DNA of 64,000 bases, from assembly GCF_009914755.1 (NCBI RefSeq), contig NC_060930.1; one strand, 5' to 3'. This DNA comes from the human T2T-CHM13v2.0 reference genome, Homo sapiens. Positions within the stretch are counted from its first letter, which is position 1, and each line of letters starts with the position of its first letter. The position numbers and the translations under genes are program-made. The notes beneath the pieces are model-generated. The model was not told where the DNA came from. It saw nothing but the letters and a program-made list of their open reading frames with translations, and did not search any database. Shown one piece after another: positions 25,842-57,102 of the stretch.

Positions 25842-26878
25842 ACCAGTGTTACTTTTTTCTATGCTCACATATCACCTTGATCTGAGACAAATTATCTCTC
25901 ATTGTTTTGTCACAATTATGTGATATACTTTTATTTAAAGAATTAAACTGCTATATAATTCCTATTCAAATTTTCTATATGCTATTATATTTTCCTTGTA
26001 TATCTACATACTCTTTTATTACTTCACAGTATAAACTTTCTCATGTATATACTTTTTTTCACTAGCAATTGTCTACATCTCAAAAATTTCACCTGTCAAG
26101 TGTATAAATTTCCTCAGTAAATAAAAAGCTGCTGAATATTTTTATATGAGCTTTAAACTTAGCTTCACCTTGTTTCCATTATGCTGCAAGGTGCTTTAAA
26201 GGTAGAAATGCATTTCTGGTCTGCTCACAAACAGATGAAAAATTATTTTCCTGCCTTCTTTGATTTTACTTTCTCGTATGCACTCATTTGAGTTATATCT
26301 CATCTGTGTTAAAATGGAGGTAGCTGTATATCAGCAAAGTAGAAAGAATTCTTGATACTAAAGTAGTACATTTCCTTGCCTTGTTTTCTTTTCCTTCACA
26401 GAGTTTAGTAGTGTTCATTTTATTTATTTGAATGTCAGAGTTCTCAGATTACTGCCAAATATTGTGATTATAGCAGTTTAGGTGAATAAAAACAAGTAAT
26501 GGCTGAATTTAATTATGGATAATAACCATATGAGAAAGGGATGAAAGAACCCCTGAATCTCCTAGAGCTTCATCATCACTATTTATTTTGCAAAATAATT
26601 ATTTAGAATTAATGAGCTTATATCAGAATTGATGTATGACTGATTTTACTTTATTTTTTAAAATTTTATTATTATTTTACTTTAAGTTTTAGGGTATATG
26701 TGCACAACGTGCAGGTTTGTTACATATGTATGCATGGGCCATGTCGGTGTGCTGCACCCATTAACTCGTCATTTAGCATTAGATATATCTCCTAATGCTA
26801 TCCCTCCCCCCTCCCCCCACCCCACAACAGTCCCTGGTGTGTGATGTTCCCCTTCCTATGTCCATGTGTTCTCTTTGT

Positions 26879-30699
<3,821 letters not shown>

Positions 30700-30762
30700 T
30701 ATGATGTTAGCTGGTTATTTTGCTCGTTAGTTGATGCAGTTTCTTCCTAGCCTTGATGGTCT

Positions 30763-31673
30763 TTACAATTTGGCATGTTTTTGCAGTGGCTGGTACCAGT
30801 TGATCCTTTCCATGTTTAGTGCTTCCTTCAGGAGCTCTTTTAGGGCAGGCCTGGTGGTGACAAAATCTCTCAGCATTTGCTTGTCTGTAAAGTATTTTAT
30901 TTCTCCTTCACTTATGAAGCTTAGTTTGGCTAGATATGAAATTCTGGGTTGAAAATTCTTTTCTTTAAGAATGTTGAATATTGGTCCCCACACTCTTCTG
31001 GCTTGTAGAGTTTCTGCGGAGAGATCCGCTGTTAGTCTGATGAGCTTCCCTTTGTGGGTAATCCGACCTTTCTCTCTGGCTGCCCTTAACATTTTTTCCT
31101 TCATTTCAACTGGTGAATCTGACAATTATGTGTCTTTGAGTTGCTCTTCTCGATGAGTATCTTTGTGGCATTCTCTGTATTTTCTGAATCTGAATGTTGG
31201 CCTGCCTTGCTAGATTGGGGAAGTTCTCCTGGATAATATCCTGCAGAGTGTTTTCCAACTTGGTTCCATTCTCCCCATCACTTTCAGGTACACCAATCAG
31301 ACATAGATTTGGTCTTTTCACATAGTCCCATATTTCTTGGAGGCTTTGTTCATTTCTTTTTATTCTTGTTTCTCTAAACTTCTCTTCTCGCTGCATTTCA
31401 TTAATTTCGTCTTCCATTGCTGATACCCTTTCTTCCAGTTGATCGCATCGGCTATTGAGGCTTCTGCATTTGTCACGTAGCTCTTATGCCTTGGTTTTCA
31501 GCTCCATCAGGTCCTTTAAGGACTTCTCTGCATTGGTTATTCTAGTTATCTGGTCGTCTAATTTTTTTTCAAAGCTTTTAACTTCTTTGCCATTCATTCG
31601 AATTTCCTCCTGTAGCTCAGAGTAGTTTGATCATCTGAAGCCTTCTTCTCTCAACTTGTCAAAGTCATTTTCC
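30763..31673 (-). pseudogene. L1 ORF1 remnant (about aa 36 to end), disrupted
   Basis: ENDFDKLREEG...QEIWDYVKRPNL...LQKHAKL; premature TGA near 31632 and a frameshift near 31110. Confidence 0.95.
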
Positions 31674-31674
31674 T

Positions 31675-31717
31675 TATCACCAGGGTATCCTTGTTTCTGC
31701 CCAACAGAGACAAAATT
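31675..31717 (-). other. 43-nt locally templated insertion at the L1 inversion junction
   Basis: Exact reverse complement of non-L1 sequence at 34228-34270. Confidence 0.95.
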
Positions 31718-32417
31718 GCTAGCACAGCGTCCGAGATCAAACTGCAAGGCAGCAGGGAGGCTGGGGGAGGGGTGCCCGCCATTGTTGAGTTAGTTGTTTG
31801 TTTAGGTAAACAAAGTGGCCTAATCAAGGAGGCCTGCCTGCCTCTGTAGGCTCCACCTCTGGGGGCAGTTCACAGACAAACAAAAAGACAGCACTAACCT
31901 CTGCAGACTTAAATGTCCCTCTCTGACAGCTTTGAAGAGAGTGGTGGTTCTCCCAGCACGCAGCTTGAGATCTGAGAACGGGCAGACTGCCTCCTCAAGT
32001 GGGTCCCTGACCCCCGAGTAGCCTAACTGGGAGGCACCCCCGAGTAGGGGCAGACTGACACCTCACATGGCCAGGTACTCCTCTGAGACAAAACTTCCAG
32101 AGGAACGATCAGGCAGCAGCATCTGCGGTTCACCAATATCTGCTGTTCTGCAGCCACCACTGCAGATACCCAGGTAAACAGGGTCTGGAGTGGACCTCTA
32201 GCAAACTCCAACAGACCTGCAGCTGAGGATCCTGTCTGTTAGAAGGAAAACTAACAAACAGAAAGGACATCCACACCAAAAACCCATCTGTACGTCACCA
32301 TCATCAAAGACCAATGGTAGATAAAACCACAAAGATGGGAAAAAAACAGAGCAGAAAAACCGGAAACTCTAAAAATCAGAGTGCCTCTCCTCCTCCAAAG
32401 GAACGCAGCTCCTCACC
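31715..32417 (+). mobile_element. Inverted L1 segment: distal 5'UTR (antisense-promoter/ORF0-start region) and ORF1 codons 1-28
   Basis: attgctagcacagc...ccacaaagATGGGAAAAAAACAGAGC...TCCTCACCA; ORF1 ATG at 32335; ORF0 ATG on - strand at 31782-31780. Confidence 0.95.
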
Positions 32418-32451
32418 ATTTATGACTGATTTTTAAAATATCTTATATTGC

Positions 32452-32572
32452 CACTGTGCCTGTAATTTCAGCTACTTGGGAGACTGAGGAGAGGATCGCT
32501 TGAGGCCGGGAGTTTGAGACCATCCTGGGCAGCACAGTGAGACCACATCTCTTACAAAAAAAAAAAAAAAAG
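32452..32572 (+). mobile_element. FLAM-like Alu monomer
   Basis: gcctgtaatttcagctacttgggagactgagg...gagtttgagaccatcctgggc followed by an A tail; single monomer. Confidence 0.85.
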
Positions 32573-34288
32573 TCTTGTATCTTTAAGTGACAAATTACAT
32601 ACTTAAGTGACAAGTATCCTTAAAACAACTTATGTCTTTACCTTCTGAGTTTCCTTAGCAATATCTTTCTCTAACTTATCAGTAGGGTTTTATTCAGAAA
32701 AAAATGTTAAAATTATCAGTATAATCATTCTAAAGGTAATATTCATTTATGTCCTCTCACACCTGTGCCCATATGCACGTAATTACAGAGTGATTCATGA
32801 CCATGCAAGTGAATATTAGAAAATGTTGCTTTTAAAACAAGTATAAAAGTGTGTGTTCATACAATATAGGTATATGCTACATAAGTATAATAACTATATG
32901 CATTATAGAAGTGTGAAGAAAATTAGTGGAACGTTTATTTTATTGCTTTTTATTTTTGCTCTTTTTCTTGTTGTTTCTGTGGAACTTGACTGTTTAGGAA
33001 AATTCAATTTCCTCCTGGGAAAAAAAAATTCGGTGCTGGTTATTGCAGAGACACTGCAGATTGTCTTAATCGGCAAACTAGAACTTCACTTCTAACTGTG
33101 TAATTTTAACTTTCAATGGTTTGCTGACTTTGAAGGAGGAAACTATGCCTCATTTGCCATATATGTAAAAGTGTGACCACATCTTCACCCTCTAAAAAGA
33201 TCTTCTTGAAGATAAATTAAAATATAATCCACAAGAGATGTTGATGAGCAAGGTAAAGGTATTATTCAAATTATGTATTTGAAATTATATTATGTTTAAA
33301 TAAAGTAAATTAAAAATCAGTTCAATGTGACAATATAGAACATTTTGGCCAAGCCAAAAATATAATAATGGTTGTAGGCAAATCTAAGTTGTGGCTTGGC
33401 AAGCATGAAAAGACAAGTTCTAGGGATGAAATCAGAGTCCAAAATCTATGAAGGTTAATGCAGGATTGAACAAGTGGTCAGCCAGGGCAGTGTCAGTATA
33501 ACCTGTAGTTTATCCAGAGAAAAAATCTTTGTTAAGAAAAAAATTGGTAAAAAGATGGAGATTGCTTTCCTCTTTTTACCATCTCTATGTTTTAGAATCT
33601 TGACTAGAACAGTTAAAATACAGTGCTCCTACACCAGGTTTCTCTAAAGATTGTTTTACTCACAAATTTCAAAAGCTAACTGTATTTGTGAGAATGACTG
33701 ATGAATTCTGCAATTCATAAAGAAGTCTAGGTATAGACATCTTTAATGGTCAGGAATCCACTTGTGTCTTCCTCACTGAGGAACTAGCATGACACTAACC
33801 TAAAAGTAGAAAAGTCAAACCGAACAGTAGAGAAGTCATCTGGTTAAAGATTCTAACAAGCATTTAGCATTGCTCCTGTCCTATGAGCATTAATGCTTGG
33901 CCTTGTTTCAGGGCCATTATTGCTAAATAACAGTAGGTACTTAGTTTCTTGCTTAAGAGGCCTTTAAATTCTGAGTAAGGCCTTGGTTTTCCTTCTCTTA
34001 CAAGTGCTTGTGGCCCTATGACTCTGCAGGCTTCCCTGTCTCTGAGCTGAATTCCTTCATGTTGGTATTTGTGTTGTCCTGGAACATACTTCAGGAACAT
34101 ATTTCCTCCTTCAATCTACAATCTATTTACTCTGCACTATCAGCATTTCCTTTCACTGTCAAGAGATGTGGCATTTTCAATCCTATTTGTAAAAACCAGT
34201 TGTTTTAATATACGGAGTCTAAACTGTAATTTTGTCTCTGTTGGGCAGAAACAAGGATACCCTGGTGATACTTATTTTTTATCAACAG

Positions 34289-35690
<1,402 letters not shown>

Positions 35691-54853: not shown

Positions 54854-55069
54854 GAATCCTCAAGATCTCACACTATTTTTGTACTCACTGGGCTACATTG
54901 GGCTTGCAAGTGTTAGCTAAATACGTTAATAGTAACAGTAACAAACCAGCTTTAAAAAATAACATATTAGACCTAATATTACCTGTAGCAAGTATGTAGG
55001 CTCACATTAACTTAGAGCATGCAGGAACAGTGAAAGGAATTTGACTTATTATGAATAATGGAATGCTTT

Positions 55070-56650
<1,581 letters not shown>

Positions 56651-57102
56651 GGAATGCTTTGTTTCAAGGCAGTTAGTTTCCCAGTCCTTCGCGGCTCCTA
56701 CTCAGCTGCTTTCTTTGAGTGTTCAATGGGGAGTTTAAATAAGAATTTAAACTGCAGTTCTAAACCTTTTCCTTTGTTTATAGTACTCACAAACTAAATA
56801 CTGAATCTCAAAAGATGGCCTTATTTAGTTTTGAATTCTTATATAAGGTAATTACAGTATTGACGTGATTAGTCAGCAGGCTGAAGTTGTCAAAGTAAAC
56901 CAAAATTGTCTAACATTTATGAAAGAAGTCAAACAGTCTTTTGGTAAATTTATTGAGTTAGATTCTCTAGGAGGCCCTTATTATTAACATCCCAAAGGGA
57001 GAATTTATTATCTTAATATAATTTTTGATAATCCAGGTATACTTTTAGTAGTGAACATTCAACTTTCAAGATAACCAGAGTAATTTGATTTGACCATCAA
57101 AA

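What the first reader, a model, noticed from the sequence alone, without database searches (positions are those of the whole stretch)
31675..31717. L1 inversion junction bridged by a perfect 43-nt copy of neighbouring unique DNA
Seen: between the minus-strand L1 body (ends 31673) and the inverted 5' piece lies tatcaccagggtatccttgtttctgcccaacagagacaaaatt. This is not L1 sequence and is the exact (43/43) reverse complement of 34228-34270, about 1.8 kb beyond the right TSD. Its last 3 nt (att) are shared with the L1 5'UTR, and about 20 nt of ORF1 (codons 29-35) are missing between the two L1 pieces. Known: twin priming normally joins the two cDNAs by microhomology or a few untemplated bases. Inference: in L1-mRNA sense the insert equals the + strand of its source. 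It therefore fits ORF2p switching onto a nascent + strand transcript of the locus it was inserting into, or a DNA-templated (Pol theta-like) patch from nearby chromatin.
Basis: partly seen in the sequence, partly recalled or inferred. Interest (0 to 1): 0.8.

Follow-up and report, generated by a model that had tools for sequence, protein, structure and literature searches.

The report
Flank-copied patch at L1 inversion junction
An old LINE-1 insertion whose front end was flipped during integration carries, at the flip point, a 43-base copy of host DNA lying 1.8 kb away; it is a clean germline example of a repair scar already described in cultured cells and tumours.

Summary
31675-31717 is the exact reverse complement (43/43) of 34228-34270. 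These are the only two copies in the 3.1-Gb genome, even with 3 mismatches allowed. The insert lies between the minus-strand L1 body (ends 31673) and the plus-strand 5' piece (31718-32418) of a twin-primed L1. That L1 is bounded by a 15/16 target-site duplication. Twenty nt of ORF1 are missing between the two pieces. The terminal ATT is genuine 3-nt microhomology with the L1 5'UTR, present in 25 of 29 fetched relatives. 31674 is an orphan T.

The L1's private non-CpG divergence is about 2%, so zero differences in 43 nt is unremarkable (P about 0.17).

I favour a DNA-templated patch (about 0.5). The 3' end of the internally primed cDNA folded back onto its own resected flank, primed on ATT, copied 40 nt, and was then joined to the primary cDNA.

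Locally templated insertions at L1 integration sites are already in print. This is a new member of a known kind, of modest interest.

The parts
26632..26647 (.). Left target-site duplication copy (ATGTATGACTGATTTT)
   Evidence: family D14: 15/16 identical to 32418-32433. Sequence read.
26648..26667 (-). Degenerate A-tail of the L1, seen as a T/A-rich stretch on the plus strand. The boundary with the L1 3' end is approximate.
   Evidence: Read. In one search the L1 self-reference was defined from 26650. The 3' end was not compared with relatives.
26668..31673 (-). L1 body (primary cDNA product), from the 3' end up to ORF1 codon 36. It is broken by stops and frameshifts.
   Evidence: RVT_1, Exo_endo_phos, Tnp_22 dsRBD/RBD/trimer on the minus strand in the expected order; 91-95% identity to 29 relatives over 30900-31673.
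31674..31674 (.). Orphan T, explained neither by L1 nor by the source
   Evidence: the relatives have C or T in L1 sense here, where the window has A; the source has G at the corresponding place.
31675..31717 (+). 43-nt templated insert, the exact reverse complement of 34228-34270
   Evidence: (I2)
31715..31717 (+). ATT: 3-nt microhomology shared by the insert and the L1 5'UTR
   Evidence: ATT precedes GCTAGCAC in 25 of 29 relatives
31718..32418 (+). Inverted L1 5' piece (internally primed cDNA product): 5'UTR from about 386 nt inside the element to ORF1 codon 28. It carries a private 30-nt deletion near 31823.
   Evidence: (about 90% identity to 39 scored L1 copies)
32418..32433 (.). Right target-site duplication copy (ATTTATGACTGATTTT). 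Its first A is shared with L1.
   Evidence: D14
34228..34270 (+). Source of the insert, in unique intronic DNA 1,794 nt beyond the right TSD

Best explanation
This is a single retrotransposition event of an L1PA-type element, resolved by twin priming. A 43-nt filler was copied from the host flank while the two cDNA ends were being joined. I hold this overall reading at about 0.9.

The specific mechanism I favour, at about 0.5, runs as follows.
1. After the second-strand cut, the minus-strand 3' overhang at the right TSD primed a second cDNA on ORF1 codon 28 of the L1 RNA. It copied 701 nt into the 5'UTR.
2. Meanwhile the plus-strand 5' end of that same (reciprocal) DNA end was resected by at least 1.85 kb. 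This exposed the minus strand as single-stranded DNA.
3. The 3' end of the second cDNA (...AAT-3') left the L1 RNA about 386 nt short of its 5' end. It folded back on its own strand and paired with ATT at 34228-34230.
4. It was extended by 40 nt on the minus-strand DNA template, up to 34270. The polymerase could be ORF2p itself, which copies DNA templates, or a repair polymerase such as Pol theta or Pol delta.
5. The end was then released and joined to the 3' end of the primary cDNA at 31673 without microhomology and with one extra base. That join was either end joining or non-templated addition followed by a template jump onto the cDNA 3' end.

Shown here: the anatomy, the uniqueness of the 43-mer, the microhomology and the age compatibility. 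Inferred: the resection, the order of events and the polymerase.
For: Anatomy and uniqueness.

Twin-priming hallmarks: TSD 15/16; a 19-20-nt gap in L1 coordinates in 29 of 29 relatives; L1 domains in the expected order.

Microhomology sits at the junction between the insert and the internally primed cDNA (ATT, 25 of 29 relatives). There is none at the other junction, which instead has an orphan T. That is the pattern expected if the internally primed cDNA annealed at an internal site and the final join was end-to-end.

The source lies on the reciprocal-end side and the copy is inverted, exactly as a fold-back in cis demands.

Precedents read in papers:
- 22 locally templated non-L1 inserts among 3,598 tumour L1 insertions, and template switching at twin-priming junctions by the internally primed cDNA in 20 cases against 3 for the primary cDNA (bioRxiv 10.1101/2024.08.27.596794; passages).
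[quoted passage not shown] - ORF2p core polymerises on DNA and RNA templates, adds non-templated bases and jumps templates (PMC10830420; passages).
- Yeast fold-back templated inverted duplications in which one end is extended and the other captured by end joining (PMC11724301; abstract).

Age: private non-CpG divergence of the L1 is 1.8-2.25%. That gives about 1.8 expected differences between the two CpG-free 43-mers, so P(0) is about 0.17 by my arithmetic. The insert can therefore be as old as the L1.
Against: Nothing in the sequence tells DNA from RNA as the template.

The mirror-image model fits the same two junctions: the primary cDNA adds one base, jumps to a plus-strand template, and anneals to the second cDNA through ATT.

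The patch is longer and its template much further away than is usual for Pol theta inserts. Those are generally under 25 bp and come from sequences flanking the break (PMC12426944; passages). The tumour preprint describes templates very close to the insertion site.

A 43-bp duplex had to be unwound again before the final join.

Resection to 1.85 kb is assumed, not shown.

The join to the primary cDNA lacks the microhomology that is usual at inversion junctions.
Confidence: 0.5

Rival explanations
1. RNA-templated patch. The primary cDNA reached the end of its usable L1 RNA at ORF1 codon 36 and added one non-templated base. ORF2p then switched to a nascent plus-strand ADGRB3 intron transcript tethered at the locus and copied 43 nt (34270 back to 34228). 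The new 3' end annealed through ATT to the 3' end of the internally primed cDNA.
For: - The strand logic is correct, and the host gene is on the plus strand (hub annotation).
- The L1 is antisense to the gene, so a copy of its RNA by the primary cDNA would be inverted, as observed.
- One extra base followed by a jump is typical ORF2p behaviour.
- A 3-nt microhomology at the final cDNA-cDNA annealing is the norm for twin priming.
- RT template switching to other RNAs during L1 integration is well documented.
Against: - It needs ADGRB3 to have been transcribed in the ancestral germline or early embryo. I found no statement on germline expression, and the gene's older name is brain-specific angiogenesis inhibitor 3.
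- Template jumping needs an acceptor 3' end at 34270, for which nothing in the sequence accounts.
- In the data read, the primary cDNA is the rarer switcher (3 against 20).
- There is no RNA hallmark: no splice junction, tail or small-RNA end.
- The side of the source is unexplained; this model predicts either side with equal chance.
Confidence: 0.2
2. SDSA-like copying from duplex DNA, the model attributed to Gilbert et al. 2005. The 3' end of the primary cDNA left the L1 RNA, invaded the nearby duplex on the reciprocal side, copied the plus strand for 43 nt, and then dissociated and annealed to the second cDNA.
For: This is the explanation the tumour preprint gives for its 22 templated insertions, citing Gilbert 2005. 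The template is in cis and close by. The ATT microhomology fits the final annealing.
Against: There is no microhomology, only an orphan base, where the invading end would have had to pair. Strand invasion without homology is unlikely. I could not read Gilbert 2005, so I know its cases only through the citing sentence.
Confidence: 0.1
3. Capture of a free single-stranded DNA fragment. A piece of the resected plus strand, cleaved off as a flap or oligonucleotide, was trapped between the two cDNA ends.
For: [quoted passage not shown] The source lies on the strand and the side that would be resected.
Against: Simple ligation predicts no microhomology, yet 3 nt are shared at one junction (chance about 1 in 64 per junction). 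The source is retained intact, so the gap would have had to be refilled anyway.
Confidence: 0.08
4. The insert is not part of the integration event: a later break repaired at exactly the inversion junction, gene conversion, or an assembly artefact.
For: Zero differences in 43 nt while the TSD pair shows 1/16. I could not inspect reads or other assemblies.
Against: P(0 differences) is about 0.17 at the L1's own age, so no younger origin is needed. The insert sits exactly between the two cDNA termini and shares microhomology with one of them. 43 nt is far shorter than the reads of a telomere-to-telomere assembly, and both copies lie in unique context.
Confidence: 0.04

Closest known systems
Twin priming (5'-inverted L1 insertion; Ostertag & Kazazian 2001, seen here only as a citation, with descriptions)
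   Same: Two L1 segments in opposite orientation. A 20-nt gap in L1 coordinates. TSDs of 16 nt. The inverted piece abuts the TSD where the second strand primed.
   Different: The two cDNAs are not joined directly through microhomology. A 43-nt non-L1 segment plus one orphan base lies between them.
Templated insertions of local genomic DNA during L1 integration. These comprise 22 of 3,598 tumour insertions (bioRxiv 10.1101/2024.08.27.596794), 3 cases in an L1-expression model (PMC11702581), and Gilbert et al. 2005, which was cited but not read.
   Same: Non-L1 DNA copied from near the integration site and built into the insertion. The source is retained, so a short duplication results.
   Different: Here the patch sits at the twin-priming inversion junction. 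It comes from 1.8 kb away, and the event is an old, fixed germline insertion rather than a somatic or cell-culture one. The supplementary figures that give distances and orientations for the published cases were not open to me.
'Twin priming and 5'/3' switching' (same preprint) and the GREM/SEMA3C insertions of PMC11702581
   Same: An extra segment at the inversion junction, produced when one of the two growing cDNAs changes template before the ends are joined.
   Different: In those cases the second template is another part of the same RNA or another cDNA product, not host flank.
Polymerase-theta-mediated end joining with templated insertions (review PMC12426944)
   Same: Priming on minimal base pairing, abortive synthesis on flanking DNA, re-use of the extended end, and an inverted copy when the end folds back.
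   Different: Typical inserts are under 25 bp and come from sequence next to the break. Here the insert is 43 nt (40 new) and comes from 1.8 kb away, and the 3' end is a cDNA. Dependence on Pol theta cannot be tested here.
Fold-back templated inverted duplications at yeast double-strand breaks (PMC11724301, abstract)
   Same: An inverted copy of the break's own flank. One end is extended after microhomology pairing and the other is captured by end joining. This is the same asymmetry of junctions seen here.
   Different: Those are 5-34 bp, use microhomologies adjacent to the break, depend on Pol delta, occur in yeast and involve no retrotransposon.
U6/L1 and other RNA/L1 chimeras (PMC13174262)
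   Same: A second template is added to an L1 insertion within one TSD-bounded event. Template switching or twin priming is invoked.
   Different: The partners are abundant small RNAs, rRNA, Alu or spliced mRNAs from elsewhere, placed at the 5' end. Here the partner is 43 nt of unique intronic sequence from the integration locus, placed internally.

Membership tests
Twin-primed (5'-inverted) L1 insertion | Two L1 segments in opposite orientation whose L1 coordinates abut (small deletion or duplication) | tested here: met
   Body on the minus strand to 31673; 5' piece on the plus strand at 31718-32418. The gap is 20 nt in 27 of 29 relatives and 19 nt in 2 of 29.
Twin-primed (5'-inverted) L1 insertion | Target-site duplication flanking the whole structure | tested here: met
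   26632-26647 against 32418-32433, 15/16 (D14)
Twin-primed (5'-inverted) L1 insertion | Endonuclease-type target (T-run followed by A) at the first-strand nick | tested here: met
   The reconstructed empty site reads ...GACTGATTTT|TAAAATATC on the primed (plus) strand (read). That the consensus is TTTT/AA comes from passages.
Twin-primed (5'-inverted) L1 insertion | Poly(A) tail at the 3' end | tested here: inconclusive
   Only a 20-nt degenerate T/A-rich stretch (26648-26667) lies between the TSD and the L1 3' end.
L1-associated templated insertion of local genomic DNA | Non-L1 sequence inside the TSD-bounded insertion, identical to retained nearby genomic DNA | tested here: met
   43/43, with the source 1,794 nt from the TSD. 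Only 2 copies in the genome even at up to 3 mismatches.
L1-associated templated insertion of local genomic DNA | Made in the same event as the L1 insertion | not testable with these tools
   This needs primate orthologues. It is compatible: expected differences are about 1.8, so P(0) is about 0.17 from the 1.8-2.25% private non-CpG divergence.
Polymerase-theta end joining (templated insertion) | Microhomology at the priming junction | tested here: met
   ATT is shared with the L1 5'UTR in 25 of 29 relatives.
Polymerase-theta end joining (templated insertion) | Short insert (generally under 25 bp) templated from sequence flanking the break | tested here: not met
   43 nt, with the template 1.8 kb from the break. 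The norm is taken from PMC12426944.
Polymerase-theta end joining (templated insertion) | Dependence on POLQ | not testable with these tools
   Requires genetics in a retrotransposition assay.
RT template-switch chimera with a cellular RNA | The partner sequence corresponds to a transcript in the orientation that the cDNA would copy | tested here: inconclusive
   The orientation fits the plus-strand ADGRB3 pre-mRNA if the primary cDNA switched. Expression in the germline is not established.
RT template-switch chimera with a cellular RNA | An RNA hallmark in the partner (defined RNA end, splice junction, tail) | tested here: not met
   The segment is 43 nt of continuous unique intronic DNA with no such mark.

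The most novel reading that the evidence does not exclude
The patch is a cDNA copy of nascent ADGRB3 intron RNA. ORF2p, finishing the primary cDNA, jumped onto a host transcript still tethered 1.8 kb downstream of the break. The junction would then be a fossil showing that L1 integrated into a gene being transcribed in the ancestral germline. It would also show that nascent host RNA can serve as filler template. That would make strand-biased fillers a readable record of transcription at ancient integration sites.
Probability: 0.2. Interest if true: 0.6.

Novelty: new member of a known kind. Interest (0 to 1): 0.35.

Why it matters
The locus gives a base-perfect germline example of how the two DNA ends of an L1 integration intermediate are handled before ligation. 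One end shows microhomology-primed copying of host DNA, and the other shows a microhomology-free join. This is the same asymmetry seen in fold-back repair in yeast and in L1-induced foldbacks in cultured cells.

If the fold-back reading is right, it records kilobase-scale 5' resection of the reciprocal end during a heritable L1 insertion. That would link the ordinary twin-priming outcome to the rarer hairpin and foldback rearrangements that destabilise chromosomes.

A single case cannot settle DNA against RNA as template. It does define the test: a survey of such fillers for side, orientation and host-gene strand.

Tried and rejected
(1) A repeat or L1 origin for the 43-mer. Rejected: two copies genome-wide at up to 3 mismatches, the context is unique, and blastn of 33700-34800 against the L1 found only short chance-level hits.

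(2) An extension of the homology beyond 43 nt. A lenient blastn stretched the match to 58 of 68 columns with 2 gaps. That is 15 of 25 in the extra part, which I treat as chance. The ungapped flanks differ at the first base on both sides.

(3) A 15/16 match between the insert (31680-31695) and the L1 body (30201-30216, ORF2 antisense; D15/I10) as a guide for template choice. Among 3,000 random 43-mers of the window, 10.9% score as high, but that figure includes other L1 fragments. Among the 2,752 with score 16 or less (presumed non-L1), 79 (2.9%) do. This is weak and post hoc, so I only note it.

(4) Perfect identity as a sign of a younger event. Rejected by the divergence estimate.

(5) A later simple inversion of 31718-34227 bounded by the 43-nt inverted repeats. 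Undoing it does not restore a contiguous L1 and would separate the TSDs. Rejected by reasoning.

(6) Hypermutation near the junction. The lower identity of 31718-31820 to relatives is due to CpG-rich sequence and a private 30-nt deletion, not to a cluster of changes in the window copy.

(7) A survey of neighbouring DNA for other filler-bearing twin-primed L1s. The only in-window comparator is the second twin-primed L1.

(9) Gilbert et al. 2005 was not held.

(10) Germline expression of ADGRB3: nothing useful found.

Full report
**The observation**

The window sequence at 31675-31717 is the exact reverse complement of 34228-34270 (43/43; pair I2, arms 2,510 nt apart). The bases next to the match differ on both sides, so 43 nt is the full extent. 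None of 100 dinucleotide shuffles gave two matches.

In the whole 3.1-Gb assembly the 43-mer occurs once on each strand. The reversed-pattern control gave none. Allowing three mismatches changes nothing. A 401-nt stretch around the source matches only itself and the insert. The 43-mer therefore belongs to no repeat family and to no L1 consensus. The copy embedded between L1 sequences must be the derived one.

**The element**

The minus strand from about 26668 to 31673 carries the following domains, in the order of an L1 read right to left, split by stops and frameshifts:
- ORF1 trimerisation, RBD and dsRBD domains
- an Exo_endo_phos endonuclease domain
- an RVT_1 reverse-transcriptase domain

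31718-32418 on the plus strand is L1 5'UTR followed by the first 28 codons of ORF1. It matches other genomic L1 copies at about 90% over its full length: 39 non-self matches scored out of 4,806 candidates.

I fetched 29 of these relatives (L004-L032) and used them in place of any remembered consensus. They show four things:
- The stretch missing between the two pieces is 20 nt in 27 of 29 and 19 nt in 2 of 29 (sequence seen in the 15 of 29 printed).
- The three bases before the point homologous to 31718 are ATT in 25 of 29. The other four differ at one or two of the three bases.
- The relatives continue about 386 nt further upstream, so the inverted piece is 5'-truncated by that much.
- Base 31674 (T) fits neither the relatives nor the source.

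The whole structure is bounded by a 16-nt direct repeat, 26632-26647 against 32418-32433, matching 15/16 (D14). The reconstructed empty site has a T-run followed by A's at the position of the first-strand nick. This is the anatomy of twin priming as described in the passages I read.

A second twin-primed L1 in the same window serves as a normal comparator. It comprises 55067-56138 on the minus strand and 56136-56653 on the plus strand. It has a 3-nt overlap at its inversion junction, no filler, and a GAATGCTTT duplication.

**Age**

Using pairwise distances only (three-point branch estimates over 30 sequences), the private branch of the window's L1 is as follows:
- All sites: 2.3% for 31824-32418 and 3.6% for 30900-31673.
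- Non-CpG columns: 1.8% and 2.25%.

The 43-mer has no CpG. Two copies diverging at about 2% each would show about 1.8 differences, so P(0) is about 0.17 by my arithmetic. The perfect identity is thus compatible with the insert being as old as the L1. The one mismatch in the 16-nt duplication fits too. From recall, about 2-3.6% divergence corresponds to an ape-age L1PA subfamily. I could not name the subfamily with these tools.

**Strand logic**

The primary cDNA is the plus strand, growing rightwards to 31673. The internally primed cDNA is the minus strand, growing leftwards from the right TSD to 31718. Two routes are then possible:
- If the primary cDNA was extended across the insert, its template had the sequence of the plus strand at 34228-34270.
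- If the internally primed cDNA was extended, its template was the minus strand there.

The hub annotation places the window in an intron of ADGRB3, a plus-strand gene. A minus-strand template, in contrast, is available as DNA. Resection of the plus-strand 5' end of the reciprocal DNA end exposes exactly that strand, on the same molecule that carries the internally primed cDNA.

**Mechanism**

I favour fold-back copying by the internally primed cDNA, for five reasons:
- The 3-nt microhomology lies at the junction between this cDNA and the insert, which is where an internal annealing event needs it. The other junction has no microhomology and one extra base, as in an end-to-end join or a non-templated addition followed by a jump onto the 3' end of the primary cDNA.
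- The source lies on the reciprocal-end side and the copy is inverted, as a fold-back in cis must give. The RNA model predicts the side only by chance.
- In the long-read tumour study, switching at twin-priming junctions involved the internally primed cDNA in 20 cases and the primary cDNA in 3. In the L1-expression study, the one dissected case was also assigned to the secondary RT.
- ORF2p copies DNA as well as RNA templates, adds non-templated bases and jumps templates. No extra enzyme is strictly needed, although a repair polymerase is equally possible.

Several points count against this reading:
- The sequence carries no mark that distinguishes a DNA from an RNA template.
- The mirror model fits both junctions.
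- The patch is longer and more distant than typical Pol theta inserts, and than the templates summarised in the tumour preprint.
- Resection is inferred, not shown.

My estimates are:
- about 0.5 for the fold-back on DNA
- 0.2 for nascent RNA
- 0.1 for invasion of duplex DNA by the primary cDNA
- 0.08 for capture of a cleaved single-stranded fragment
- about 0.04 for a later event or artefact

The remainder is unassigned.

**Comparison with what is known**

Non-L1 DNA copied from near the integration site into an L1 insertion has been reported in three places:
- 22 of 3,598 somatic insertions in ten tumours. The authors cite Gilbert et al. 2005 for an SDSA-like model and remark that such events may be under-counted.
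- 3 insertions in an inducible L1 model.
- Extra cDNA segments at the internal junction of twin-primed insertions, also described.

My four literature searches on this question turned up no case of a filler at a twin-priming inversion junction copied from flank more than a kilobase away in a fixed germline element. That absence is weak evidence. I could not read Gilbert 2005.

Catalogues of L1 chimeras with RNAs concern other partners and the 5' end. The large comparative study of inverted L1 junctions reports microhomology lengths and does not mention fillers in the passages I saw.

**Verdict**

The mechanism belongs to a known class, templated insertion during resolution of an L1 integration intermediate, and this locus is a particularly clean and unusually long-range member of it. 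It is worth keeping as a seed for a survey, but it is not a new kind of event.

Noticed in passing
window 55067-56653: A second twin-primed L1. The minus-strand 3' piece is 55067-56138 and the plus-strand inverted piece is 56136-56653. There is a 3-nt overlap at the junction, no filler, a gap of about 900 nt in L1 coordinates between the pieces, and a flanking GAATGCTTT duplication with a clean T-run tail.
   Followed up: partly
window 31680-31695 / 34250-34265 versus 30201-30216: The insert and its source share a 15/16 match with the ORF2 region of the same L1 (same sense as the L1 RNA on the source's plus strand). Among presumed non-L1 43-mers of the window, 79 of 2,752 (2.9%) score as high. 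It might have helped tether the L1 RNA or cDNA to that spot, or it may be chance.
   Followed up: partly
window about 31821-31824: The inverted 5'UTR piece lacks 30 nt that are present in all 7 relatives aligned. All 29 blast alignments break at this point. Three bases (TAA) stand in their place.
   Followed up: partly
window 34275-34281: A T6/A endonuclease-like site on the plus strand lies 5-11 nt beyond the right boundary of the source. Such sites are common in this AT-rich DNA, and no link to the event is shown.
   Followed up: no
window 32457-32570 and 35149-35314: A SINE fragment (Alu-like, from recall) lies just right of the TSD, with an inverted partner about 2.6 kb further on. The arms are 72-87% complementary (I1, I3, I5). 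They bracket the source and could pair if the flank were single-stranded. Their age relative to the L1 is unknown.
   Followed up: no
window 26648-26667: The L1's A-tail is short and degenerate (T/A-rich with an internal AAAA on the plus strand), unlike the clean tail of the second twin-primed L1 at 55066-55078.
   Followed up: no
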